Positions 5,758-23,021 of a stretch of DNA of 64,000 bases are shown here, in pieces (positions within the stretch are counted from its first letter, which is position 1; each line of letters begins with the position of its first letter). The DNA is taken from the NCBI GenBank assembly GCA_965248435.1, contig OZ252100.1, forward strand, positions 1,216,001-1,280,000, in the 5' to 3' direction. Origin of the DNA: Candidatus Latescibacterota bacterium (GTDB taxonomy: Bacteria > Latescibacterota > UBA2968 > GCA-2709665). The notes beneath the pieces were generated by a model. It searched no databases. It was not told the origin of the DNA and saw nothing but the letters and a program-made list of their open reading frames with translations. A program made the translations under genes and the position numbers.

Positions 5758-6492
5758 TCATCTGATGCTTAGCTCGTGAGACACCTTGTCCTTTAGGATG
5801 AAATCCCTGCGAAACCCTCTTGGAGTTATTCCCTCTAATCTTTGGAAAGTAGACGTAAGCTGGCGATAATTTCTAAAACCGCACTTCTCTGCAATTACAT
5901 AAAAAGGCTCATCGCTGCACCTAATGAGATGCTTTGCCCTTTTTACGCGATAGAAGGCCAAGCGTCTTCTGAATTTCATTCCCACTTCATTTCTAAATAA
6001 TCTGGATGCATATCTCGTTGAGATCCCGAAATGCGCGCATATGTCACCTAACTTCAACCCAGGCTCTGAATAGTGGTCTCTCACAAAAGCTTCCAATTTA
6101 TTTGCAAGTGGATGCGTTGATGAATGACGTTTGGCAATCAGGTTCTTTATGGAACCTATTAACTCATCTGCCTTAAAGGGTTTTGTTAGGAAGTCCTTGA
6201 CTCCTTTCTTAATCGCTGAGACAGCAACTTCTACGGTCCCATAGCCTGTCAGAATAAGAAGATCAGTTTCAATTCCTCTCCCTTGCACCTCTTCCAAAAC
6301 CTGCATCCCATTAAGATGTGGCATCTCCAGGTCGAGAACTGCCACATCAAAGTGCTGGCTGGAAAGCAGATCAAGTGCTTCTCTCCCATCTTTTGCTAAT
6401 TCAACAACCCAAGGTTGGGAGCTGAGTGCCTGTCTGATGAACTCAAGAACTGTAGGCTCATCATCGGCTATGAGAATTTTGGGTTGTGGCAT
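5758..6492 (-). CDS. Response regulator, REC + AraC-type HTH (paralogue 2)
   Basis: Highly similar to 2195-2905 (MPQPKILIADDEP...DVAVLDLEMP...AEKCGFRNYRQLTSTFQRLEG). Confidence 0.92.
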   Translation of the reverse strand: MPQPKILIADDEPTVLEFIRQALSSQPWVVELAKDGREALDLLSSQHFDVAVLDLEMPHLNGMQVLEEVQGRGIETDLLILTGYGTVEVAVSAIKKGVKDFLTKPFKADELIGSIKNLIAKRHSSTHPLANKLEAFVRDHYSEPGLKLGDICAHFGISTRYASRLFRNEVGMKFRRRLAFYRVKRAKHLIRCSDEPFYVIAEKCGFRNYRQLTSTFQRLEGITPRGFRRDFILKDKVSHELSIR

Positions 6493-6632
6493 CTAGCTAC
6501 TCTTTTGATTCTTAATTTCCGTCCTGAAAATACTCTGATCTTGTTGCTTCGTGCAAGTCGGCGCCTTAGAGGTCTCCTCTTGTCACTTCAATATATTTAT
6601 CGTCTGTGATCCTTGGTAATCCAATGCTTAAT

Positions 6633-7004
6633 TTATTCCTCTCCCATAACATCCTCAATAGCCTTACTTAAATCTTGAAGCTTAAATGGCTTTTGAAGAA
6701 AGCTAAGTGCTCCAGCTTCTTTAGCTGGTTCTGCTATCTCTTCGGAGAATATACCAGAGATGGCAATTATTCTCGCTCCATTATCATAGCTCTTTAGTTC
6801 TTTAATCACTTCAAGCCCGTCTTTTCCTGGCAATCCCATATCTACGAACACCACGTCTGGATTTTCTTGATGGTAAAGCTCAATACCTTCCTCTCCATTA
6901 TGCGCCAGATAAACTTCATAACCCTCTGAATTCAAGCTGCTCTTGAACAGCTCTCTAACTGGAGCGTTATCATCTATCACAAGAATTGTTGGGAGCCGAG
7001 ACAG
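6633..7004 (-). CDS. Single-domain response regulator
   Basis: TILVIDDN (in frame upstream of the ORF-track start; possible CTG start at 7004), VFVDMGLP, AISG, LQKPF. Confidence 0.88.
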   Translation of the reverse strand: MSRLPTILVIDDNAPVRELFKSSLNSEGYEVYLAHNGEEGIELYHQENPDVVFVDMGLPGKDGLEVIKELKSYDNGARIIAISGIFSEEIAEPAKEAGALSFLQKPFKLQDLSKAIEDVMGEE

Positions 7005-7009
7005 ATATC

Positions 7010-7375
7010 TTACTTTCCTCCAACAATCCCGGATGCAATTGCTTCACGCAACACACTTGGTTTAAAAGGCTTTTTAAGAACTGCAACAGGTTCTAAATGC
7101 TGTAAGGCTTGCTCAAACTCTGGCAGATGTAAGAACGCTGATAGGATAATGAAAGGAATCTTTTCAGGAAGCATCTCAATGAGTTCTTTACCGTGACACC
7201 CCGGCATCTTCAAATCTGTAATAACAAGCTCAATCTTCTCCTCACCTACTAATATCTGAGAAACCGCATCAAAGCCACTATCCGCCTCAACCAAATCATA
7301 GTGTTGGTCAAGCACGCGATGCAAGAGTTTTCTAAGGTCTACATCATAACCCACTATCAGAATACAAGGTTTCAT
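7010..7375 (-). CDS. Single-domain response regulator with degenerate acidic pocket
   Basis: ILIVGYDV instead of ILxVDD; ITDLKMP, ILSA and LKKPF retained. Confidence 0.85.
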   Translation of the reverse strand: MKPCILIVGYDVDLRKLLHRVLDQHYDLVEADSGFDAVSQILVGEEKIELVITDLKMPGCHGKELIEMLPEKIPFIILSAFLHLPEFEQALQHLEPVAVLKKPFKPSVLREAIASGIVGGK

Positions 7376-7469
7376 CTCTTCGCCTTATTCTCTTTGGACC
7401 ATCTTACTAGCTCATAGAGAAAGATACCGATGCACGGAATTAGCAGAATTAGGAAGGGTGTAAAGCCAT

Positions 7470-7787
7470 TCATTTCTTTCCCTCAGCTTCTCCATCTCTA
7501 GGCTTAGCAAATTCTTCCTTCAACGTCTTTCCAGGTCTAAAACTCACCTTTCTTCGGGCCGGAACATACACTCTCTCTCCAGTGCTCGGATTGCGGGCAT
7601 TGGGATTAGCCCTTACTTCTCGTACTCTCCAAACACCAAACCCTCTAATCTCAATTCTGTCTCCCTGAATAACAGCCTCGGTCATAGCCTTCACTACTGT
7701 ATCCACCATAAGCTTCGCTTTTCTCTGAGTGATGTTGCACTTCTTAGCAATAACTTTACAAAAATCTAGTTTGGTGATTGTTGCCAA
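7470..7787 (-). CDS. HU/IHF-family DNA-binding protein
   Basis: GDRIEIRGFGVW...ARNPSTGE.V.VPARRKVSFRPGKTLK signature. Confidence 0.93.
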   Translation of the reverse strand: MATITKLDFCKVIAKKCNITQRKAKLMVDTVVKAMTEAVIQGDRIEIRGFGVWRVREVRANPNARNPSTGERVYVPARRKVSFRPGKTLKEEFAKPRDGEAEGKK

Positions 7788-7803
7788 CTCTACCTCAGAT
7801 CAT

Positions 7804-7916
7804 AAAGAAAAAGGCACACCTCTCATCAAGTGCACCTCAATAATTCTGGCTTTCTCCCTCCCGATGAGAGAACTGGGATCGACATAAATATATGTTTCGA
7901 CTGTTGGAATTGTCAA
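7804..7916 (-). promoter_or_regulatory. Promoter (TTGACA-18-TATATT) and attenuator-like leader of the HU/IHF gene
   Basis: Hairpin TTCTCTC-ATCGGGA-GGGAGAA; terminator GAGGTGCACTT/AGGTGTGCCTT plus T-tract; alternative 12-bp helix TCTCTCATCGGG/CTTGATGAGAGG. Confidence 0.65.
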
Positions 7917-7936
7917 CTTGAAAGTAGAATCTTTAG

Positions 7937-8242
7937 CTACTCATACCCTTGCTCTTCCACTCTTTGCAGAATTGCCTTAAGCCTTCTACTCATTGTCCGA
8001 ATCAGTTTTGAGTTTTCAAAGTAAAGAAAAGCATCACACACAGCCCCAGGTCCAAAGGCATAGCCTTCACAAGGTGTAAAGTTATCAACTTCAGGAATCC
8101 AGGGCTTGTAATTCGCATCTACCCTTTGTCCTCTGCCACACATCCTCTTCTCTATCTCTCTCGGCAAAATACCTTGGTTGTAAAATCCACAATCACTATG
8201 GTATTTGCATCTTGCTGGCTCTTTGTATTGTTCATCTGGCAT
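7937..8242 (-). CDS. Small Cys-containing hypothetical protein
   Basis: 101-aa ORF with CKYHSDC and other Cys; AT-rich TTTCTTAA box about 23 nt upstream. Confidence 0.55.
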   Translation of the reverse strand: MPDEQYKEPARCKYHSDCGFYNQGILPREIEKRMCGRGQRVDANYKPWIPEVDNFTPCEGYAFGPGAVCDAFLYFENSKLIRTMSRRLKAILQRVEEQGYE

Positions 8243-15424: not shown

Positions 15425-16462
15425 CTAGGCAACTTTACGCATTTTCCTTCCAGACTTTTTCCTCTTTTCCTCTCTCCTAAATCGACGTATAACCATATCA
15501 ATCAAAGTCCCGCCTAATTCAGCGTGTGGATGCCCTTTCAACTTCTCGGCCTCTTCCAAGCTGCTACAATTTGAAATCTCCAAGCTAATCTCAAGACGCT
15601 GAGCCAATTCCCAAGGCTTGTGCTGGCGAAATATAGAGAAAAGTGGATCAATCATCTCTGGATGATATTCCAAGATGAAGTTTAAAATAGCAGGCCAACA
15701 GACAAGCTTAGCTGGTCCACCATAAATCGTTGGGACAAACAAACGACCAATGAGATGGTCTATGATGGCTAACATAGCAGGAGGCATGTCCTCGCCCACT
15801 GAAAGCTGGATAAGTTTTACAATGGCAAAGTGATTCTGATATATTTCTTTGATCTGAAAAGGATCGAATTTCTCTGGAAACACCATCCCCATTGAGCGTT
15901 TCCCACCAGTCTTTAATATGACGTTTTTGAATTCGCCTTTTGACACATCGCTCATTTGCAGCGAAGTGAATTTTCCGAATCGGACATTCTCAACCTCTGT
16001 ATGGATCTTAGCTCCTGTAAGATCCCACGTATTCATATCTATGTCTTTTACCTTTGCATCAGTTAGATTAGCAAAACGGAGCTTGACGTCTCTTCCTGTA
16101 GTTCTCTCTAGGTTGGCACCGCTTAGGTCCATTCCTGTTAAATCCCATCCAGATAAGTCCTCGCCAGAAAGGTCAGCTCCTCTTAGGTCTTTGCCGTGAT
16201 AGCCGTTTTGATGGCCATTCAAGAGACTTCTAGCAGGAACGTTTCCTTTTGTTTCATATTCGATGAACTCAGCCAAGCTCAGAGCTGTGGAATCCTTCAT
16301 TCGTCGAATATTACCCCTGATGGCCTGGCTAATTGTATCACGGCTTATCCTATGCCCATTTTGTTTGGTCCAGGCTTCTGTATACTCAAGCTTAAAACCT
16401 TGAGTATCGTAAAGTTCCTTGAGGGCATTTGACAGGCGAGAAGTGACTAAAGCTCCAGGCAT
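15425..16462 (-). CDS. Pentapeptide-repeat protein with N-terminal HTH-like domain
   Basis: DLRGA-DLSGE-DLSGW-DLTGM-DLSGA-NLERT repeats; N-terminal ISRDTISQAIRG...STALSLAEFI resembles an XRE HTH. Confidence 0.8.
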   Translation of the reverse strand: MPGALVTSRLSNALKELYDTQGFKLEYTEAWTKQNGHRISRDTISQAIRGNIRRMKDSTALSLAEFIEYETKGNVPARSLLNGHQNGYHGKDLRGADLSGEDLSGWDLTGMDLSGANLERTTGRDVKLRFANLTDAKVKDIDMNTWDLTGAKIHTEVENVRFGKFTSLQMSDVSKGEFKNVILKTGGKRSMGMVFPEKFDPFQIKEIYQNHFAIVKLIQLSVGEDMPPAMLAIIDHLIGRLFVPTIYGGPAKLVCWPAILNFILEYHPEMIDPLFSIFRQHKPWELAQRLEISLEISNCSSLEEAEKLKGHPHAELGGTLIDMVIRRFRREEKRKKSGRKMRKVA

Positions 16463-17015
16463 GACTCATTACTCCCTTGTCAAGAACTCCTGAAAACTCC
16501 TGAAAGAATTCAGATGTTTTTCTAGAATATTTTGATAAATTTAGCTTATTGCTACCGTACATAACGCGGCGGCGATACTGGGGCTGAGGGGCGTTTTTCT
16601 CCGCAAGAGTGGACGCTCCTTGGCCTTTTGTTTTGCCTACCTAATTTCCTACCCCCCGGCTCAAAAGTCAAGTTGAAAAGCAGTCGCTGAGTAGGCATTC
16701 TGAATGTTCCCTTTCTGAGTCTTGACATCTAACCCATATTGGTATACTTTTGTGCACTACTCTCCAAACTGGCTCATAATTGAAGGTTCGGTAACTAAAA
16801 GATGATCGCATTGATCCAAACGCAGATTTCCCCTGTCGAAGCGGTCGAAAATCCGTTGGCGGTTATAAAGCTAGCGCGTTTTCTTTATGCACATTTTTGT
16901 ATAAAGGTCACATTTTTGAATGTTCGAGGTTAACAGAAGAGAGAAGCCACAGTGTTTTCTTTCACTTACATAGATTGCGTTGTACATTTCAACCTGAAAA
17001 AAGCGAGACTATGGC

Positions 17016-17563
17016 TTGGCGGCTACACCTTCAAAGAGCTTTCGCGAACAGCTCAAGGGTGCAATATCTGATTTTCTCGGTCGAGAAGAGATGCCTTGTT
17101 ATAAGACTGAAGAGGCAATCCTAGAGCTTGTTGTCGCATTGTCCAGTTACACAGAGGAAGGAACCAATCTCTTTCCCAGGATACTAATCTGCGATGAGTT
17201 GCATGAGACCTTACGCATACTCAATGGAAGGAACAAGGTTCCGATAGGTCGCGAGGCTGGTCAAGTCGAAAAGCGATGTTTGGCAAGTCGCAAAATCCGC
17301 CAATAGCCTTCAGCGTCTCTTGATGCAAGGACAGCCTCGCAAGTGAGCCGTGAGGATATTGAGTGACCCGCCCAATGGTCGAGGCGTCAGAAGCTATAGG
17401 GTACGTTATCGCCGAGGGAGAGATGACTTACGCCCTTACGGATTCTGGCACAGAACTTCCTTCCACGATGAAGATTCGGCCCCAAGAGAGCTTCTTCGAC
17501 AAGCTCATCAAACGGTTCAAACTAGACATCTCGTTTGACATTACGAAGCTATTCAAGCAGTAG
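17016..17563 (+). pseudogene. Fragments of at least two truncated genes
   Basis: 17016-17306 is protein-like to about IGRE (LSSYTEEGTNLFPRILICD), then degenerates; 17363-17563 is a C-terminal fragment ending just before an attC-like site. Confidence 0.4.
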
Positions 17564-17567
17564 TGAG

Positions 17568-17624
17568 ACCCCAACCATTCCTTTCAGCCGACGGCGTTCC
17601 GCCGCCGCGAAGGCCGCGTTATCT
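17568..17624 (+). other. Degenerate integron attC-like site
   Basis: CCCCAAC-CATTCCTTTCAGCCGACGGCGTTCCGCCGCCGCGAAGGCCGC-GTTATCT directly after a stop codon: near-RYYYAAC and near-GTTRRRY ends, internal CAGCCGACGGC/GCCGC arms. Confidence 0.5.
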
Positions 17625-17653
17625 CATTCAATCATTTTCAACATATTCCACTA

Positions 17654-18076
17654 ATAGAAAAACGAATAATACTGATTTCCTGTGCGAGGAAAAAACGAGA
17701 TACGAAATCCAAAGCAAAAGATATGTATGTAAGCGCTTTGTTTAAGAAAAGTCTAGCTTATGCAAATCAGATACAACCAGTAAAGAAGAATATTTACATC
17801 CTATCTGCAAAACACGGGTTATTGCCATTAGATCAGGAGATTGAACCATATGAATTTTCATTGAAATTCTTATCAAATGTGAAGGTAAAGAAATGGGCAA
17901 AAAACGTATTAAATCAATTGGAAGAAGTATGTACACTTGACGAAACTGATTTCATTCTTTTTGCTGGTGAAAGATATAGAAGATACTTAGTGCCACACCT
18001 AAAATCTTATGAAATTCCTCTTAAAGGATTGGGTATTGGCAAACAGTTAAAAGAACTTAATGAGCTTGTAAAATGA
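17654..18076 (+). CDS. DUF6884-like protein
   Basis: In-frame upstream extension IILISCARKK..SKAKDMY.S.LFKKSLAYA, YILSAKHGLL, AGERY, PLKGLGIGKQL. No ATG before the conserved N-terminus (ATA at 17654). Confidence 0.75.
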   Translation: MEKRIILISCARKKRDTKSKAKDMYVSALFKKSLAYANQIQPVKKNIYILSAKHGLLPLDQEIEPYEFSLKFLSNVKVKKWAKNVLNQLEEVCTLDETDFILFAGERYRRYLVPHLKSYEIPLKGLGIGKQLKELNELVK

Positions 18077-18711
18077 GCCAAAAGTGTTGTTTGATCACAA
18101 CCGTTTTTAATGACCTTAATCGATACAATTTTCCCTATGATGAATCCTATATTCCAAAGAATGGTATCTACATTTTATTTGAAAAGAGAGAAACCGGCCA
18201 TAAATGTGATAGAGTGGTGAGAATCGGAACTCATACAGGAATTAATCAGTTACGATCAAGATTAACACAACATTTTCTGAAGGAAAATAAAGATAGAAGT
18301 ATCTTTAGAAAGAATATTGGAAGAGCAATATTAAACAAAAGAAAAGATCCTTTTCTCAAACATTGGGAAATCGATCTAACAACAAAAGAGACAAAAGAAG
18401 AATATTTCAGGTTAATCAATTTGAATTATCAAATGGAGGTTGAAAGTGAAGTCAGTGTGTATATTAGGAATAATTTTTCGTTTGTTGTTTTCGAAGTCGG
18501 AAAAAACGAAAAGCGTCTTGAATTGGAATCTAAAATTGTATCAACGGTGTCACTCTGTGAAAAATGTAGACCATCAAGCTCATGGCTGGGGAACTTTTCA
18601 ACAAAGGAAAAAATTGTTAATAGTGGTCTATGGCAAATAAATGAGCTCTATAAGAAACAGTTGAATAGTAATGATATTGATGAGTTAGCTAGGTTAATGA
18701 AAAAGGTTTGA
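18073..18711 (+). CDS. GIY-YIG-like nuclease-family protein
   Basis: NGIYILFE...VVRIGTH..NQLRSRL.QHF...SIFRKNIG; ATGA-coupled to the DUF6884 gene. Confidence 0.6.
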   Translation: MSQKCCLITTVFNDLNRYNFPYDESYIPKNGIYILFEKRETGHKCDRVVRIGTHTGINQLRSRLTQHFLKENKDRSIFRKNIGRAILNKRKDPFLKHWEIDLTTKETKEEYFRLINLNYQMEVESEVSVYIRNNFSFVVFEVGKNEKRLELESKIVSTVSLCEKCRPSSSWLGNFSTKEKIVNSGLWQINELYKKQLNSNDIDELARLMKKV

Positions 18712-18781
18712 ATTTCTCATAATGAGGTCGGAAAATGAAAACATTTACCGTAGTTTTTATATGGTTTGGAAAGGAGGTAGA

Positions 18782-20388
18782 ATGTTAAGTAATTACTTAG
18801 GTTCTCAACCTCATTATGGATAATCCATCTAAACCAACAAGCAAGACGAAATAGGCTCGCGCTTATTTGCGGTGCCGGAATCTCAATTGATGCTGGGATA
18901 CCATCGTGGAATACGCTTGTGGAGAGAATCGCTCGCAATCTAAAGGATATTCCAGAAGACTCCATTCAATTCTTTGGTGCTGGTTATAGTCCTACCTTTT
19001 TGACACAAATTGCTTATGAGCATTTTATTCGTAAATGTAAGCTATATAATACGACTGATAGACTCCTCGCGAATGAATACTGGGCAAGAATTGTTCATGA
19101 GTCTCTTTACCAAGACTGCGATCAATCTATTGACAATATCTTGAATTCACATCCATATTTACGGCAACTGGCCAGACTAGCATTCAAATGTCCACAGATT
19201 GTAACTTTTAATTTTGATAATCTGTTATCAGAAGCAATGCAAGTGCATGCATCAGAAGTAGCGAAGACTGGTGGTCATTTGGTTCCACCAGACATTTCTG
19301 TTAAACCAGGCTTAATTGATAAACCTGGTGCACCTACAATATTCCACATTAATGGATTATTACCAAGAAATCTACAGAGAAAACGAAGCGAGCATTTAGT
19401 ATTCACCGAAAATGCTTTTGCTGACGCTATGTTGTCAACAAACAGCTTAGAATTCAATCACATTTTGTTTAACCTCAGCAACTATACAAACTTGATAATC
19501 GGGCATTCGCTAAACGATTCATCGCTCAAGAATTTACTGAGGGGGTCAAGGCAAAGGGCTCCTGCGCAATTGAATTATTTCATTAGCTGGGTTGATGAAA
19601 AGGAACCACCAAATGATCAAGTAATGCAAGATATTTTTGCCGTTAATCTGGAAGTGTATAATCTGATAACGATTTTTGCCACTACTTCAGACATTGCAGA
19701 GATCCTAAAACTAATAAATATAACAGAAGAAATCGATTTCGCGGCAGCATTAAGACCTTTCGGGATTTCATCCATTAAATATCTATACTACATTGTTGGT
19801 CCCGTCGCATCTGGCAAAACTTCGGTTCTGCTGCATTTACGCTATTTCCAGACCTATGAAGAATGGTTAGATCCAGTTCCACCGTTGATGTATCTAAGTC
19901 ATAACCTCCTAACAGATGAACAGCGTTCAGATGTTGAAAAATGGGTATTAGACCAATTAGATAAGAAGAACAGAATAATGCAAAGGACTGAGGCGGGTTT
20001 CTATTTTATGGATAGAGCACCCTTAGATGCTTTGGTTTTTTCTGCTACTGAAGAGGAACGAAGAAAAAAGGCATGTGCTCTGTCCAAGTGCTTTCAAGCT
20101 GATAACCAGCTTACAAATGCTCAGATCCAGTTCATTTATGCCGAAGGGAAGGCGCTAGAAGAGAGGAACATTCGACGAGGCAGACTTCCTGAACAAGGAG
20201 GGGATTCAGATTATATTGATAAACAAACTAATGATCTATTAACACTCTATACTCCAGACAAAATCTATGATGCAACAAACAAAAGTTCTGGAGAAATCGC
20301 AAGAGAAATTGTAATCTCAACATTACTTGATGATTATGAAGAGAAGAATTTAGGAAGCATATTGGAAGAAGAAACCAATGAAATCTAA
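18782..20388 (+). CDS. SIR2-like domain fused to a deoxynucleoside/nucleotide-kinase-like P-loop domain (apparent 1-nt frameshift near 18820)
   Basis: AAGGAGG + ATG 18782. In the main frame: LICGAGISIDAGIPSW, IVTFNFD, FHING, IGHSLND (SIR2); GPVASGKT, YEEW, MDRAPLD, ERNIRRGR (dNK-like). Confidence 0.85.
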
Positions 20389-20803
20389 AGTATATTTTGC
20401 AGCTCCTCTGTTTACAAAAGAAGAACGATCCTTCAATTCGTTTCTAACAGATATTCTGTCAAAGAGATACTATGTTTATCTTCCCCAAAGAGATGGTGTC
20501 CTGCTAGAAAACGAGGCTCGTAAAGGGAAATCGGTTGCTCAGGTAAAAGAGCTTATTTTTGAGAAGGACTGTGAAGCAATCAGAGACTGTAATATTGTTT
20601 TTGCTGTTCTTAACGGTAGAACCATTGATGAGGGTGTTTGTTTTGAACTTGGCTATGGATTTGCTCTGGGGAAGAAATGCTGGAGCTATAAAGAAGATTG
20701 GCGCTCTTTGTTTAAATATGGTGATAATCCAATGATTGAAGGTGCAATACAACACTATTTCAAGTCAATTGACAAACTTGTAACCTTCATTAGCGATCGT
20801 TAA
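20378..20803 (+). CDS. Nucleoside 2-deoxyribosyltransferase / DNPH1-like N-glycosidase
   Basis: VYFAAPLF, YLPQRD, KDCEAI, IDEGVCFELGY (catalytic Glu), NPMI; overlaps the upstream stop by 11 nt. Confidence 0.9.
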   Translation: MKSKVYFAAPLFTKEERSFNSFLTDILSKRYYVYLPQRDGVLLENEARKGKSVAQVKELIFEKDCEAIRDCNIVFAVLNGRTIDEGVCFELGYGFALGKKCWSYKEDWRSLFKYGDNPMIEGAIQHYFKSIDKLVTFISDR

Positions 20804-20859
20804 TTCAAAGTTCTTGCTTTTCCAAAGTGAATACACTGCGGTAAATATAGACAAAGGAA

Positions 20860-20900
20860 ATAGTCGGGTAGCCGGCGGATTTTCTCCCCCAGCTCCCAAA
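20860..20900 (-). mobile_element. Remnant of a group II intron 3' end (domain VI-like)
   Basis: Minus strand TGGGAGCTGGGGGAGAAAATCCGCCGGCTACCCGACTAT resembles bacterial group II ends (GGGAGCCGG...CCGGCTACCCGAC); domain V and the RT gene are absent. Confidence 0.45.
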
Positions 20901-21237
20901 GCAGGTGCCCCACTCCTTCAAGAGTGAGTTTCTGATGTATGTGCTTATTCTCGTAATAGTTAAATCAAAAGTACAGGTCTATTTTCGTAACAGGCCACTA
21001 GAATCATAAAACAGAGAAAAATTGAAGCCCATCCTGGATTCGACTTGAGCATCAGGCGTCGTTCGGTCACCCTCCTATTCCCTCAACGATCTCGCAAAAC
21101 GCTGTCCTCTGAAATTCCCTGTCTGAAATTTCACCAATGACCGAAGTGTAAGCCTCCTTGAGAGGATTCGGTAGGTTTGGGACTCTAGTCCGACCTGCTC
21201 ATTCTCCGTAAAGTGCAGATGAAACCCAATCCACCTT

Positions 21238-21495
21238 TTACAATCCAGGAGGGATTCCTCGGATGCCTATGTAGTCCTTTTCAGCCGTTTTCAGGCCCTT
21301 CTCGGGAAGTGATGGGGTTTCTTTGCCCAAAATCCCAAAAACCCCATAAATGCCAGTCTTCAGAGGCTTTAGTATCAGTGCGTCCTTTCTCTCGCTTAAG
21401 TCCATCTCCAGGAGAGTGTCCTCTTCAATTTCCAGTTCCTTACGAAACTCAGAAGGGATCGAGACCTGCCTTCCTTTTGTCGTTTTTGTTAGCAT
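21238..21495 (-). CDS. AbrB/MazE/SpoVT-like DNA-binding protein
   Basis: TTKGRQVSIPSEFRKELEIEEDTLL...LILKPL. Confidence 0.65.
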   Translation of the reverse strand: MLTKTTKGRQVSIPSEFRKELEIEEDTLLEMDLSERKDALILKPLKTGIYGVFGILGKETPSLPEKGLKTAEKDYIGIRGIPPGL

Positions 21496-21764
21496 TCTGC
21501 ATAACCTCATTCAGAATGAAGCATTTGAAGTATTTAAAGCTTTCGGCTTGCTCTCTTTGCACTTCGGACACTTGGGCATTTTCTCCACCAATTGGAGAAG
21601 AGGGCTTTTCACCCTCTCCAATTTCCTCACTTCTCTCAACCGCCTTCTTCCTAAATACTGAGAACAGCTTCATATCCTCATCTTTCTTGTTCTTTCCAAT
21701 GCCGTTAAAGACTATTCTCACTTCATCTCCCACACTTACTGTCTGAATATTCACAGGGCAGAAA

Positions 21765-22208
21765 TTGTTATTGGCTTCAGTGTTCCTCTTTTTCTGTATG
21801 GAAAAACGAAAATATGGCCTTCAGCTCTTCGATGAAAACTATCTCCCACGACCCTCACCGCCGTTTCCCTTCGGGATGCAACCTCAACATTCGGTTGGGA
21901 ATGCTGGGTTGTTCCGGAAACTCTTGACAGGATTGGCGGCGCTCCAAAGGAATTCATTGGTCCGTTATAGAGATCCATCTATTGAAGGAATGTTGAAGGA
22001 GAGCGTTGTTGAGGAAGCACTCAATGAGACCGGTATGAATTCAGAACGAAGATATCCGTATCTCGAAGCAGAGGTGAGTGATGCAGTGGAAAGCGGTAGG
22101 TATTTTCGAACTCTAGGAGCGTCGAAATCCAGTCGTGGCCGGAGCCTTCTGGAGCAAATGGACTTACTCCCTCGTGAGCTCCCACGAGACAGTATCAGCA
22201 TTTCCTAA
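21765..22208 (+). CDS. Hypothetical protein or fragment
   Basis: 147-aa ORF, partly protein-like; no family recognised. Confidence 0.3.
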   Translation: MLLASVFLFFCMEKRKYGLQLFDENYLPRPSPPFPFGMQPQHSVGNAGLFRKLLTGLAALQRNSLVRYRDPSIEGMLKESVVEEALNETGMNSERRYPYLEAEVSDAVESGRYFRTLGASKSSRGRSLLEQMDLLPRELPRDSISIS

Positions 22209-22447
22209 GAACGGGATTCTATGTGAGGGAAGGAATGATCTACAGGGGACCTCGGTAAATCCCTGTGGCAAATTTGAGGAGATATGGTCGTGCAGCTAAG
22301 CGCTAAGTGCTCAAGGAGTTGAATTCGAATTTGTGGAAGATCCTGAAGACCTAGCTAGCTAAGGCTATTGCGTCTTTCATTCCCGGTGGAGTTCGTAAAG
22401 CTATATTCGATCGTTACCGAACTGGATGTCAGAGATGTAATCCCCCC

Positions 22448-22830
22448 CTAGACCTCCTTTCCAAAGTTCTGAGCAAACGTCAGAAAGTCCAAGAAGTCTA
22501 CTGCCTGTTATTGTCAAAATCAAATTTTGCATCGAACTTTTCTTCTCCTTGCTTTGTGCCAAAACCCTGTGCAAAGGCGAGGAAATCAAGGAAGTCTACT
22601 TTGTTGTTGCCATCAAAGTCACCAACCAAGAGAGTAGCTATCGTAACGGTGAAAGCGTGCTGGCCCGCAATGGAAACAAGAGCTCCTTCATCATCTTCAG
22701 TTCCATAGATCTGGTCATTCGGAAGAATTTGCTTGTCAAACACGTGTCCGTCCCTCCTATTGGCCAGAATAGGCATGCTAGGAGGATGCCAGCAGAGAAG
22801 GACTTAAAGGCAATCGAAAGGAAGCCATGT
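22448..22830 (-). pseudogene. Remnant of an exported protein with C-terminal EF-hand/dockerin-like repeats
   Basis: GDFDGNNKVDFLDFLAFAQGFG...FDFDNN, frameshift, then VDFLDFLTFAQNFGKEV*; a signal-peptide-like piece lies in another frame. Confidence 0.75.
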
Positions 22831-22975
22831 TAAAAAAATAGAAACCCCGAGGACTACCAACGAAGCTCTGTCGGTATATATCCTCGGGGTCAAATAGGAC
22901 CGGAGGCGCTGGCATCCCCCGGTCAACGCAGCCCGGCAAGATGAGACCCCTAGATCACGGCCAGGTTGCGTCACG
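22831..22975 (-). promoter_or_regulatory. Structured leader ending in an intrinsic terminator
   Basis: Hairpins GACCGGGGG/CCTCCGGTC and GACCCCGAGGAT/GTCCTCGGGGTT + TCTATTTTTTT; upstream CTAGGGGTC can pair with the terminator 5' arm. Confidence 0.5.
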
Positions 22976-23021
22976 ATCCAGTCATCAAAAGCCCCGCTTG
23001 TGCTCCGACATCAGCCATCCG

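What the first reader, a model, noticed from the sequence alone, without database searches (positions are those of the whole stretch)
18782..20803. Candidate undescribed nucleotide-signalling defence system: SIR2-deoxynucleoside-kinase fusion plus nucleoside 2-deoxyribosyltransferase
Seen: a two-gene operon with an 11-nt overlap, in a visibly AT-rich patch. Gene 1 joins a SIR2-like domain (GAGIS, TFNFD, GHSLND) to a domain with the full dNK/TMK-type motif set (Walker A GPVASGKT, YEEW, DR, lid RxxRRGR). Gene 2 is an NDT/DNPH1/MilB-fold enzyme with its catalytic Glu. Known: SIR2 domains are NAD+-depleting effectors in Thoeris, DSR, SIR2-HerA and Kongming, and Kongming is switched on by a base-modified nucleotide; NDT-fold enzymes swap or cleave deoxynucleotide bases. 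Inference: the NDT makes (or removes) an unusual deoxynucleoside derived from phage-modified or degraded DNA, and the kinase-like domain binds or phosphorylates it to trigger the NADase. I do not recognise this pairing as a named system. Caveats: this copy appears to have a 1-nt deletion near 18820, and the usual catalytic HG reads NG (FHING).
Basis: partly seen in the sequence, partly recalled or inferred. Interest (0 to 1): 0.85.

Follow-up and report, generated by a model that had tools for sequence, protein, structure and literature searches.

The report
Decayed SIR2-kinase/NDT defence-like cassette
The two genes are real and are the fixed core of a rare, horizontally spread, untested gene cassette that looks like an anti-virus system joining an NAD-destroying enzyme to two enzymes that turn a free base into a DNA building block, but the copy in this genome appears to be broken.

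Summary
Window 18782-20803 encodes a SIR2_2 domain fused to a dNK/TMPK-fold P-loop kinase. An 11-nt overlap leads into a nucleoside 2-deoxyribosyltransferase (NDT). The patch has 36% GC against 48% for the window.

The pairing is conserved. NDT accompanies the fusion in 34 of 38 full-length genomic loci, 2 plasmids and 1 lambdoid prophage.

A DUF6884 plus GIY-YIG module (PADLOC candidate PDC-M57A/B; window 17654-18711) lies upstream in most loci.

The 'FHING' caveat is wrong: that His is invariant in the family.

The N-terminal frameshift is real and appears in all four run assemblies. The DUF6884 gene also lacks a canonical start codon before its invariant CxxxK motif. This copy is therefore probably inactive.

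The NDT matches the solved DpNDT (PDB 7O62), a proven deoxyribosyltransferase.

Best reading: a mobile candidate anti-phage system with a SIR2 NADase effector coupled to a base-to-deoxynucleoside-to-dNMP route. Nothing has been tested experimentally. My searches found no paper describing it.

The parts
17654..18076 (+). DUF6884 (YaaA-like) gene, PADLOC PDC-M57A. The frame is open from about 17566. The invariant Cys is at 17681-17683, the invariant Lys at 17693-17695, and LSAKHG at about 17801-17818. The first canonical start codon is ATG 17723, which lies after CxxxK. ATA 17654-17656 sits where homologues have Met.
   Evidence: The extended frame 17630-18073 matches Pfam DUF6884 positions 1-134 of 135 at 1.4e-41. 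The version starting at the ATG matches only positions 20-135, at 2.5e-32. The PADLOC PDC-M57A hit is 1.2e-41.
18073..18711 (+). GIY-YIG_3 nuclease-like gene of 212 aa, PADLOC PDC-M57B. It overlaps the stop codon of the DUF6884 gene (ATGA).
   Evidence: PDC-M57B at 6.7e-96; the window's own protein carries precomputed PF26468. ESM Atlas score 0.98 to GIY_YIG_3 clusters; conserved GxY, RxVRxGTH, R..L..H, E and WLG motifs.
18782..18823 (+). Orphaned N-terminal stub of the fusion gene (frame A, MLSNYLGSQPHYG then stop), behind AGGAGG at 18773-18778.
18810..18823 (+). Frameshift site. Frame A and frame B both align to homologues around here, and the simplest reading is the loss of 1 nt. No slippery heptamer is visible.
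   Evidence: The sequence is unchanged in four run assemblies.
18793..19740 (+). SIR2_2 domain (frame B) with GAGIS, N140-F-D142, H185 and GHSLND.
19744..20388 (+). dNK/TMPK-fold P-loop kinase domain with Walker A GK, EEW, DRxPLD and the lid R458/R462.
20378..20803 (+). Nucleoside 2-deoxyribosyltransferase of 141 aa, of the DpNDT (PDB 7O62) type. The presumed catalytic Glu90 is at 20645-20647.
20929..21560 (.). Repeat-bearing right border of the AT-rich islet. Other contigs in the reads diverge from 20929/20937 onward, and partial copies lie elsewhere in the genome.

Best explanation
**What it is.** Window 17654-20803 is a horizontally acquired copy of a rare, conserved cassette.
- Its fixed core is a SIR2-deoxynucleoside-kinase fusion, translationally coupled to a type II nucleoside 2-deoxyribosyltransferase.
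- The core is usually preceded by a DNA-acting module, here DUF6884 plus a GIY-YIG_3 nuclease (PADLOC candidate PDC-M57).

**Most likely role (inferred).** An anti-phage, abortive-infection system in which the SIR2 domain destroys NAD+.

**Most likely logic (inferred).**
1. NDT puts a free base onto deoxyribose. The base is foreign or otherwise abnormal. It could be released from phage DNA by the upstream DNA-acting module, or made by the QueC-like enzyme present in some variants.
2. The fused kinase phosphorylates the resulting deoxynucleoside at the 5'-OH.
3. Binding or turnover of that nucleotide in the kinase domain switches on the fused SIR2 NADase. The kinase domain sits where ThsA carries its ligand-sensing SLOG domain.

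**What is shown:** the domain identities, conservation of the catalytic residues, the gene linkage, the mobility, and the NDT chemistry of an orthologue.

**What is not shown:** NADase activity, the ligand, and phage protection.

**This copy.** It is probably inactive. The fusion gene is frameshifted ahead of its NAD-binding loop. The DUF6884 gene has lost a canonical start codon ahead of its invariant CxxxK motif.
For: **The SIR2 half looks like a defence NADase.**
- Pfam SIR2_2 scores above its cut-off.
- The AlphaFold2 model has pLDDT 86 and pTM 0.87.
- The best PDB folds are ThsA, DSR2 and KomC, at E 3e-11 to 1e-8.
- GAG, N140, D142 and H185 are invariant in 15 of 15 aligned sequences.

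**The kinase half looks like an enzyme.**
- The model has pLDDT 89.
- The top folds are Giardia dAK 8puu, human dCK, Drosophila dNK and TMPKs, with TM about 0.5-0.65.
- G19, G24, K25, E40, W41, D90, R91 and R141 are invariant in 25 of 25 sequences.

**The NDT is a proven enzyme type.**
- The family profile hits PDB 7O62 at 1.5e-52.
- 7O62 is DpNDT, a tetrameric type II NDT that is active on purine and pyrimidine 2'-deoxynucleosides (passages of PMC12372993).
- Y6, D64, D84, E90 and N117 are invariant in 18 of 18 sequences.

**Linkage.**
- NDT is present in 34 of 38 full-length loci, and directly downstream in 31.
- The pair also occurs on 2 plasmids with 4-nt overlaps and in 1 lambdoid prophage.
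- The two families are similar in size: 118 fusion clusters and 194 NDT clusters. They share contigs, including consecutive locus tags BJL95_08110 and BJL95_08115.
- The kinase subfamily has only 436 representatives among 1.84 billion proteins. In the 150 listed, the domain lies at the C-terminal end of proteins of about 500-690 aa (about 90 of them) or of shorter proteins.

**Defence and mobility context.**
- The upstream genes match PDC-M57A/B.
- Flanking ORFs of homologues hit mad3/mad8, IetS (6.8e-258), NsnB, ATPase-Toprim, BilC/D, LmuB, AbiLi and restriction-modification genes.
- IS66, KAP NTPase and FRG genes lie beside the plasmid copy.
- An integrase lies beside L025.
- The prophage copy lies on the opposite strand between the O replication gene and the Q antiterminator.
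- The cassette was found in 0 of 30 relatives by DNA. The full-length fusion was found in 0 of 60 relatives by profile.

**Decay of this copy:**
Against: - No experiment exists on any member of the family apart from the isolated NDT.
- In the window itself the flanks hold no recognised defence genes. Of 10 flanking ORFs scanned against PADLOC, 8 had no hit; one gave only generic HTH matches and one a weak Csn2 match at 5.5e-4.
- The PADLOC tally over neighbours of homologues has no matched control. It lists only the top 25 families, not the share of ORFs hit.
- The kinase domain keeps every catalytic residue. It may therefore be a metabolic enzyme and not a switch.
- DpNDT works on ordinary deoxynucleosides, though poorly at about 0.7 IU/mg. 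An unusual base is therefore not required by the data.
- GIY-YIG_3/PDC-M57B proteins are far more numerous than the fusion: at least 3861 clusters against 118. Most PDC-M57 modules must work without SIR2-kinase and NDT, and the two modules could simply be neighbours.
- 4 of 38 loci lack a detectable NDT.
Confidence: 0.55

Rival explanations
1. These are two independent systems that merely sit side by side. PDC-M57 (DUF6884 plus GIY-YIG nuclease) would be a self-sufficient DNA-targeting defence. SIR2-kinase plus NDT would be a separate two-gene system with no functional link to it.
For: - GIY_YIG_3 proteins 59-68% identical to the window's fill all 120 listed hits, out of at least 3861 clusters. 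The fusion has only 118 clusters.
- The window's PDC-M57B is only 28-37% identical to the GIY-YIG parts found in other cassettes.
- The pair stands alone in the prophage L090, on the Eleftheria plasmid, and in L025 and L030.
- In the window a 70-nt gap and a separate Shine-Dalgarno sequence divide the two modules.
Against: - A DUF6884 and/or GIY-YIG gene lies upstream in 34 of the 36 loci whose upstream flank is present. It is directly upstream in 33 of them, and about 2 kb upstream in L035. It abuts the fusion gene in all 26 loci where the two domains are fused, and its ORF overlaps the fusion's in at least L001, L003 and L022. By record titles these loci come from Pseudomonadota, Nitrospira, Clostridia, Planctomycetota and others.
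- Where it is missing, another DNA- or NTP-acting partner takes its place. Examples are a KAP NTPase, a 5'-3' exonuclease fusion, an HhH-GPD-like ORF and a PD-(D/E)XK nuclease.
Confidence: 0.2
2. The cassette is a factory for a non-canonical nucleotide. NDT and the kinase would build an abnormal deoxynucleotide from a base, for example a 7-deazaguanine in the QueC-linked variants, or nicotinamide released by the SIR2 domain. That nucleotide itself would poison phage replication or mark DNA. NAD+ depletion would not be the point.
For: - Both enzymes keep their full catalytic sets.
- NDT followed by dNK is the classical deoxynucleoside salvage pair (established biochemistry, recalled from memory).
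- A QueC-like gene lies directly upstream in 5 of 38 loci.
- Pfam AAA_28, which I recall as the family of the NadR nicotinamide-riboside kinase domain, gives a sub-threshold hit at 3.1e-4. It is also precomputed on many homologues.
Against: - The SIR2 fold is closest to the NAD+-depleting effectors.
- No nucleoside-monophosphate or diphosphate kinase, polymerase or transglycosylase is conserved in the cassette.
- No nicotinamide-riboside kinase structure appears in the top 50 fold hits.
Confidence: 0.15
3. The genes serve ordinary housekeeping: deoxynucleoside salvage or DNA repair, with no role in conflict with phages.
For: - DpNDT acts on ordinary deoxynucleosides.
- A DUF6884 member, YfjM, was reported to bind abasic and RNA-base lesions (passage of PMC11701544).
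Against: - The fusion was found in 0 of 60 relatives.
- The cassette is an AT-rich islet.
- It is scattered over several phyla, plasmids and a prophage moron site.
- Its neighbours include defence genes.
- The SIR2 domain is of the defence type.
Confidence: 0.06
4. The window copy is still functional. The fusion and the DUF6884 gene would be translated from non-canonical starts (ATA, ATC, CTG) or by ribosomal frameshifting.
For: - Downstream of the lesions, both reading frames remain open and every catalytic motif is intact.
- The closest homologue, P0002 (56% identical), is called without the N-terminal 20-odd residues.
Against: - No ATG, GTG or TTG precedes GAGIS in frame B, or CxxxK in the DUF6884 frame.
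- I saw no slippery heptamer between 18793 and 18821 (by eye).
- The strong Shine-Dalgarno sequence and ATG at 18782 feed a 13-codon dead end.
Confidence: 0.2

Closest known systems
Kongming (KomABC)
   Same: A SIR2 NADase effector is controlled by a base-modified deoxynucleotide made through a nucleotide-metabolism route. The KomC SIR2 is among the best fold matches: 9xvc_E at E 1.2e-9 with TMt 0.73, and 8zsf_A.
   Different: Pfam finds no deaminase (KomA) or HAM1-like (KomB) domain in the four genes. Here the nucleotide-handling domain is a dNK-fold kinase fused to the SIR2, and the partner enzyme is an NDT. The ligand is unknown.
Thoeris ThsA (SIR2-SLOG)
   Same: The layout is the same: an N-terminal SIR2 followed by a C-terminal nucleotide-binding domain. 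ThsA gives the top fold hits, 6lhx and 8bto at about 4e-11.
   Different: There is no SLOG domain and no TIR partner. The PADLOC ThsA hits cover only about 35 N-terminal residues.
PADLOC candidate PDC-M57 (A: DUF6884; B: GIY-YIG_3)
   Same: The two upstream window genes match the PDC-M57A and PDC-M57B models at 1.2e-41 and 6.7e-96.
   Different: PDC-M57 is an untested candidate, and a search for its name found 0 papers. No PDC-M57 model matches the SIR2-kinase or the NDT.
DpNDT of Desulfotalea psychrophila (PDB 7O62)
   Same: The cassette NDT profile matches it over 138 of 140 positions at 1.5e-52. The same catalytic residues are present.
   Different: DpNDT was studied as an isolated biocatalyst. 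The terms operon, genomic context, physiological and locus do not occur in the paper. I could not check whether its gene sits beside a SIR2-kinase gene.
Retron-Eco1/Ec86 NDT-like effector
   Same: An NDT-fold protein in an anti-phage system tied to NAD+ loss (review passage in PMC13276650).
   Different: There the NDT-like protein is itself the NAD+-depleting effector and is caged by RT-msDNA. Here a separate SIR2 is present, and the NDT subfamily is a proven deoxynucleoside transferase.

Membership tests
SIR2_2 (PF13289), defence-type sirtuin fold | Pfam model scores above its gathering score | tested here: met
   47.8 bits against a cut-off of 24.5.
SIR2_2 (PF13289), defence-type sirtuin fold | Gly-rich NAD loop plus catalytic Asn and His | tested here: met
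   GAG, N140, D142 and H185 are invariant in 15 of 15 sequences. That H185 equals the catalytic His of DSR2 or KomC is inferred, not superposed.
SIR2_2 (PF13289), defence-type sirtuin fold | NAD+ hydrolysis | not testable with these tools
   Needs an enzyme assay.
Thoeris | ThsA SLOG domain and a TIR (ThsB) partner gene | tested here: not met
   No SLOG or TIR in Pfam or PADLOC scans of the four genes.
Kongming | KomA deaminase and KomB HAM1-like partners | tested here: not met
   No such Pfam domains in the four genes. PADLOC-DB 2.0 predates Kongming, so its models could not be used.
DSR1 | NCBIfam Dsr1 equivalog score | tested here: not met
   35.4 bits against a cut-off of 1400.
Lamassu (LmuA-SIR2 with LmuB) | LmuB SMC-like partner beside LmuA | tested here: not met
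   Only a partial LmuA hit at 1.6e-8. No LmuB hit among the four genes.
dNK/TMPK-type P-loop nucleoside(-tide) kinases | Fold | tested here: met
   The top Foldseek PDB hits are dAK, dCK, dNK and TMPK at E 5e-7 to 1e-5 with TM 0.5-0.65. The sequence-profile hits are weak: shikimate kinase, YorR and dCK at 2.5e-4 to 1e-3.
dNK/TMPK-type P-loop nucleoside(-tide) kinases | Walker A Lys, acidic residue after strand 2, DR(x) motif and Arg-rich lid | tested here: met
   G24-K25, E40, D90-R91 and R141 are invariant in 25 of 25 sequences. The matching to dCK residues is recalled from memory, not computed.
dNK/TMPK-type P-loop nucleoside(-tide) kinases | Phosphorylation of a deoxynucleoside | not testable with these tools
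   Needs an assay.
Nucleoside 2-deoxyribosyltransferase (PF05014), DpNDT type | Pfam model above its cut-off, and an orthologue-level match to a characterised enzyme | tested here: met
   76.9 bits against a cut-off of 28.8. PDB 7O62 at 1.5e-52.
Nucleoside 2-deoxyribosyltransferase (PF05014), DpNDT type | Catalytic Glu nucleophile with its Tyr, Asp, Asp and Asn partners | tested here: met
   Y6, D64, D84, E90 and N117 are invariant in 18 of 18 sequences. The correspondence to L. leichmannii Y7, D72, D92, E98 and N123 is recalled from memory.
PADLOC PDC-M57 | Adjacent genes matching the PDC-M57A and PDC-M57B models | tested here: met
   1.2e-41 and 6.7e-96.
DUF6884 (PF21818) | CxxxK and LSAxxG motifs within a translated product | tested here: inconclusive
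   Both motifs are encoded in frame. However, no ATG, GTG or TTG precedes CxxxK, and the first ATG, at 17723, cuts it off.
GIY-YIG_3 (PF26468) | Family assignment | tested here: met
   Precomputed PF26468.1 on the window's own protein. ESM Atlas score 0.98. The local Pfam copy gave only a weak DUF123 hit at 0.012.

The most novel reading that the evidence does not exclude
This is a base-salvage alarm, worked in four steps.
1. The upstream DNA-acting module excises or liberates a phage-specific modified base. That module is DUF6884, a possible base-flipping glycosylase, joined to a GIY-YIG nuclease. In some variants an HhH-GPD-like ORF, a 5'-3' exonuclease or a QueC-like enzyme takes part.
2. 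The NDT installs that base on deoxyribose.
3. The fused dNK-type domain phosphorylates the product.
4. The resulting non-canonical deoxynucleotide, bound in the kinase domain, switches on the fused SIR2 NADase.

The cell would thus use deoxynucleoside-salvage chemistry to turn a foreign nucleobase into a second messenger.
Probability: 0.15. Interest if true: 0.88.

Novelty: new variant of a known kind. Interest (0 to 1): 0.62.

Why it matters
SIR2 NADases are common effectors of bacterial immunity. How they are switched on is known for only a few systems.

This cassette joins a SIR2 domain to a catalytically intact deoxynucleoside-kinase fold and pairs the fusion with an NDT. An orthologue of that NDT, DpNDT, already has a crystal structure and measured activities. 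The natural role of the enzyme was not discussed in that paper.

If the cassette defends against phages, three things would follow:
- It would add a second example, after Kongming, of immunity wired through deoxynucleotide metabolism, using different enzymes.
- It would give a physiological context to an enzyme studied so far only as a biocatalyst.
- It would suggest a function for the widespread DUF6884 plus GIY-YIG module (PDC-M57).

The window copy itself matters mainly as a pointer to the family, because it appears to be decaying.

Tried and rejected
- **Complex prediction of the fusion with NDT:** no verdict, score 0.00. This is evidence neither for nor against binding.
- **Sequencing runs:** no RNA holder is listed, so nothing can be said about expression.
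- **PDB profile search with the GIY-YIG part:** nothing significant; the best hit was 0.019 to ORF134.
- **Promoter and terminator scan of 17300-21300:** counts at chance level (9 promoter-like sites against 10.8 expected; 2 terminator-like sites against 3.1). Two weak hairpins follow the NDT, at 20863-20876 and 20911-20926.
- **Repeat search of 16000-23000:** no convincing flanking direct repeats, so no target-site duplication was found.
- **tRNA search:** none in the window.
- **Phage GenBank collection:** 0 matches to the fusion.
- **Haloarchaeal plasmid hits to the GIY-YIG part:** stand-alone genes beside an HNH endonuclease gene; not informative.
- **Literature:**
  - 'PDC-M57': 0 papers.
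  - 'DUF6884': 4 papers, 2 listed. I read passages of the Pfam paper only.
  - SIR2 / deoxyribosyltransferase / defense / P-loop kinase: 9 papers. I read passages of two of them.
  - SIR2 / deoxynucleoside kinase / anti-phage: 223 papers at 2 or more terms, with none of the 25 listed holding 'deoxynucleoside kinase'.
  - Pfam accession pairs: 0 papers.
  - sirtuin + deoxyribosyltransferase + kinase + phage defense: 1 review.
  - YaaA / GIY-YIG / SIR2: 16 papers, none on this cassette judging by title or abstract.
  - PMC13069673 does not mention NDT or GIY-YIG.
  - Supplementary tables of the defence-discovery papers were closed. They might list this operon among candidates.
- **Programmed frameshifting as an explanation of the break:** rejected, because I saw no slippery site by eye.
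- **Earlier-finding look-ups by place and by sequence:** nothing returned.
Full report
**1. What is in the sequence**

Four co-directional genes fill an AT-rich islet. The cassette 17648-20803 has 36.1% GC, against 47.8% for the window.

- Gene 1 ends at 18076 and is DUF6884, PADLOC PDC-M57A.
- Gene 2, 18073-18711, overlaps it by ATGA. It is PADLOC PDC-M57B at 6.7e-96, a GIY-YIG_3 protein (precomputed PF26468; ESM Atlas 0.98; motifs).
- Gene 4, 20378-20803, is the NDT. It overlaps gene 3 by 11 nt.

**2. The fusion protein**

- Pfam gives SIR2_2 above its cut-off and a sub-threshold AAA_28 hit.
- PADLOC gives only partial hits to SIR2-bearing proteins: LmuA 1.6e-8, Dsr1 1.9e-7, and ThsA over 35 residues.
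- NCBIfam Dsr1 scores 35 bits against a cut-off of 1400.
- An AlphaFold2 model built on 15 homologues is confident, with pLDDT 86 and pTM 0.87. Its best PDB matches are the defence NADases ThsA, DSR2 and KomC.
- The C-terminal half was modelled alone, with pLDDT 89. It matches deoxyadenosine, deoxycytidine and multisubstrate deoxynucleoside kinases and thymidylate kinases best, with TM about 0.5-0.65.
- A sequence profile of that half reaches shikimate kinase, YorR and dCK only weakly, at 2.5e-4 to 1e-3.
- Across 25 family members the Walker A Gly and Lys, E40-W41, D90-R91-x-P-L-D and a lid Arg are invariant. Across 15 full-length members GAG, N140, D142 and H185 are invariant.

Both halves therefore look like working enzymes.

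**3. The NDT**

- In 18 members Y6, D64, D84, E90 and N117 are invariant. This spacing fits the catalytic set of the Lactobacillus enzymes, which I recall from memory.
- The family profile hits PDB 7O62 at 1.5e-52 over 138 positions.
- 7O62 is DpNDT of Desulfotalea psychrophila. It is a tetrameric type II NDT that accepts purine and pyrimidine 2'-deoxynucleosides.
- The authors call it a poor catalyst, at about 0.7 IU/mg. Its best reactions are dThd/dUrd exchange and transfer to hypoxanthine (passages and Table 2 of PMC12372993).
- The paper does not discuss genomic context.

The NDT chemistry is therefore established for an orthologue. The product carries a free 5'-OH, which is what a dNK-type kinase phosphorylates.

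**4. Is the pairing conserved?**

- The fusion has 118 clusters of relatives, almost all about 530 aa with the same architecture.
- A scan of one genome per species returned 78 loci. Of these, 38 (L001-L038) match the query beyond its SIR2 half. The other 40 match only the SIR2 part and were not used.
- tblastn found NDT in 34 of the 38:
  - directly downstream in 31, with -3 to +26 nt between the fusion's stop and the start of the NDT alignment;
  - behind a fusion with an interrupted frame in 2 (L017, L038);
  - upstream in 1 (L026);
  - not found in 4 (L014, L027, L029, L033).
- Two of 72,556 plasmids carry the fusion. Both have an annotated NDT overlapping it by 4 nt.
- One IMG/VR contig carries the pair.
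- The NDT subfamily has 194 clusters. It shares contigs with the fusion hits, including consecutive locus tags in Methylomonas sp. LWB.
- The kinase-domain profile finds only 436 representatives among 1.84 billion proteins. In the 150 listed, the domain lies at the C-terminal end of proteins of about 500-690 aa (about 90 of them) or of shorter proteins.

The pair is a specific, rare unit and not a chance neighbourhood.

**5. The upstream partner**

- In 26 of the 38 loci DUF6884 and the GIY-YIG part form one ORF of about 400 aa that abuts the fusion gene.
- They are separate genes in the window, L009 and L017.
- L027 also has a fused ORF.
- DUF6884 alone precedes the fusion in L019, L022 and L037.
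- L033 has only the GIY-YIG part.
- L035 has DUF6884 followed by an HhH-GPD-like ORF about 2 kb upstream. That hit scores 26.1 bits against a cut-off of 26.2.
- L025 and L030 have neither. L032 and L036 start at the contig edge.
- In L024 a 5'-3' exonuclease is fused in front. On the Rhizobium plasmid a 1212-aa KAP NTPase takes the place. L031 adds a PD-(D/E)XK nuclease downstream.
- A QueC-like gene precedes the module in 5 of the 38 loci (L028, L029, L031, L034, L038), but not in the window. This is the variant that two earlier notes of this scan described.

Conversely, GIY_YIG_3 proteins 59-68% identical to the window's are very numerous, with at least 3861 clusters. PDC-M57 therefore mostly exists without SIR2-kinase and NDT. 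The SIR2-kinase/NDT pair is the constant part, and the DNA- or NTP-acting partner varies.

**6. Context**

- The cassette DNA was found in 0 of 30 relatives.
- The full-length fusion was found in 0 of 60 relatives by profile. The single hit, in G057, is a weak partial SIR2 match. The window's own genome holds one copy.
- By record titles the homologues come from Pseudomonadota, Desulfuromonadales, Nitrospira, Clostridia, Salinivirgaceae, Planctomycetota and Fimbriimonadaceae.
- I scanned 129 flanking ORFs against PADLOC. These were the two nearest ORFs of at least 130 aa on each side in 36 loci, with L007 and L023 dropped as near-duplicates. The most frequent families were:
  - mad3 and mad8, 4 each;
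  - QueC, NsnB and ATPase-Toprim, 3 each;
  - IetS (best 6.8e-258), restriction-modification methylases, PD-Lambda-5_B, BilC/D, AriA, PbeA, a type IV restriction enzyme, LmuB and AbiLi, 2 each.
  - There is no matched control, and the tool does not report how many ORFs had any hit.
- The plasmid copy sits beside IS66 and an FRG-domain gene. L025 sits beside an integrase.
- In the prophage contig the pair lies on the opposite strand, between the replication gene O with YdaT and DUF1367 with antiterminator Q. This is a typical moron site, which I recall from memory.
- In the window itself the flanks are not defence genes.

**7. State of this copy**

- The fusion's proper start, ATG 18782 behind AGGAGG, runs into a stop after 13 codons.
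- The SIR2 frame has no canonical start before GAGIS.
- Homologues show that both pieces belong to one N-terminus.
- I saw no slippery site that could support programmed frameshifting.
- The DUF6884 frame encodes the invariant Cys and Lys upstream of the first ATG, at 17723. An ATA at 17654 stands where homologues have Met. With the upstream part included, the Pfam match covers positions 1-134 of 135 at 1.4e-41.
- Contigs of four runs of one sample, probably the source, agree base for base.
- Two lesions in one cassette suggest decay. However, all motifs downstream are intact, so the damage is recent or translation is rescued by rare start codons.
- Two of the 38 homologous loci also have an interrupted fusion gene. 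These may be assembly errors in metagenome-assembled genomes.

**8. Mechanism**

Shown:
- the domain identities;
- conservation of the catalytic residues;
- tight and conserved linkage;
- mobility;
- the NDT chemistry of an orthologue.

Inferred:
- The SIR2 domain is an NADase effector, from its fold and family resemblance.
- NDT and the kinase form a two-step route from base to deoxynucleoside to dNMP. The argument is that NDT makes a product with a free 5'-OH and the kinase is of the dNK type.
- The kinase domain gates the SIR2. The argument is that it occupies the position of the SLOG domain of ThsA.
- The upstream DNA-acting module supplies the base or acts as a first-line nuclease.

The Pfam paper suggests that DUF6884 binds DNA and flips a base, and it notes that YfjM was recovered on abasic lesions (passage of PMC11701544). 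Glycosylase activity is my own extrapolation.

**9. Comparison and novelty**

The closest working analogue is Kongming, where a SIR2 is switched on by a deoxynucleotide built through nucleotide metabolism. The partner enzymes differ, and the membership tests for Kongming, Thoeris, DSR1 and Lamassu fail. Half of the window's block is already a PADLOC candidate, PDC-M57. My eight literature searches found no paper on the cassette (one search was a PDB code look-up). Supplements were closed. I rate it a new variant of a known kind: SIR2-based immunity with an unprecedented NDT plus dNK module.

**10. Verdict**

The family is worth an experiment, but this copy is probably dead.

Noticed in passing
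window 20929-21560; G000:C1:1196281-1196483 and 1193824-1193971: A repeat-like stretch begins right after the NDT. Other contigs in the reads diverge from the window at 20929/20937. Parts of 21353-21744 have copies 78-82% identical about 40 kb upstream in the same genome. A 73-nt piece (20930-21002) matches relative G004 at 88%.
   Followed up: partly
window 21241-21510 (-): An orphan MazE/AbrB-type antitoxin-like ORF (PF04014, 2e-7) with no recognisable toxin gene beside it.
   Followed up: partly
window 16470-17650: The stretch left of the cassette has only short ORFs with no Pfam family (17016-17306, 17363-17563). A 170-nt piece is repeated at G000:C1:5601874-5602045 at 76% identity. It may be debris of the insertion site.
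   Followed up: partly
L035 3370-4592: In a Fimbriimonadaceae genome the DUF6884 gene is followed by an HhH-GPD (base-excision glycosylase superfamily)-like ORF instead of a GIY-YIG domain. The hit is borderline at 26.1 bits against a cut-off of 26.2.
   Followed up: partly
L024 2508-4682: In a Nitrospira genome a 5'-3' exonuclease (PF02739 and PF01367) is fused in front of DUF6884-GIY-YIG, giving one 724-aa protein.
   Followed up: partly
L090 (IMG/VR contig) 5815-8008: The SIR2-kinase/NDT pair stands alone on the opposite strand between lambdoid replication genes (O, YdaT) and DUF1367 with antiterminator Q.
   Followed up: yes
L082 5285-11033 (Rhizobium plasmid pCC1099_2): A 1212-aa KAP-family NTPase overlaps the start of the SIR2-kinase gene by 4 nt, in place of DUF6884-GIY-YIG. 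IS66 and FRG-domain genes lie nearby.
   Followed up: partly
protein P0116: A 450-aa protein of Candidatus Thiodiazotropha combines TIR domains with a SIR2_2 domain related to the one here (E 1.4e-14, 57% of the query covered).
   Followed up: no
window 22461-22600 and 22498-22776 (-): A dockerin-like ORF (PF00404, 0.0029) contains a 42-nt imperfect direct repeat spaced 98 nt apart.
   Followed up: no
PDB 7O62 / PMC12372993: The crystallised 'psychrophilic' NDT of Desulfotalea psychrophila belongs to the NDT subfamily that is paired with SIR2-kinase genes. Its low activity on standard substrates may mean its natural substrate is different.
   Followed up: partly
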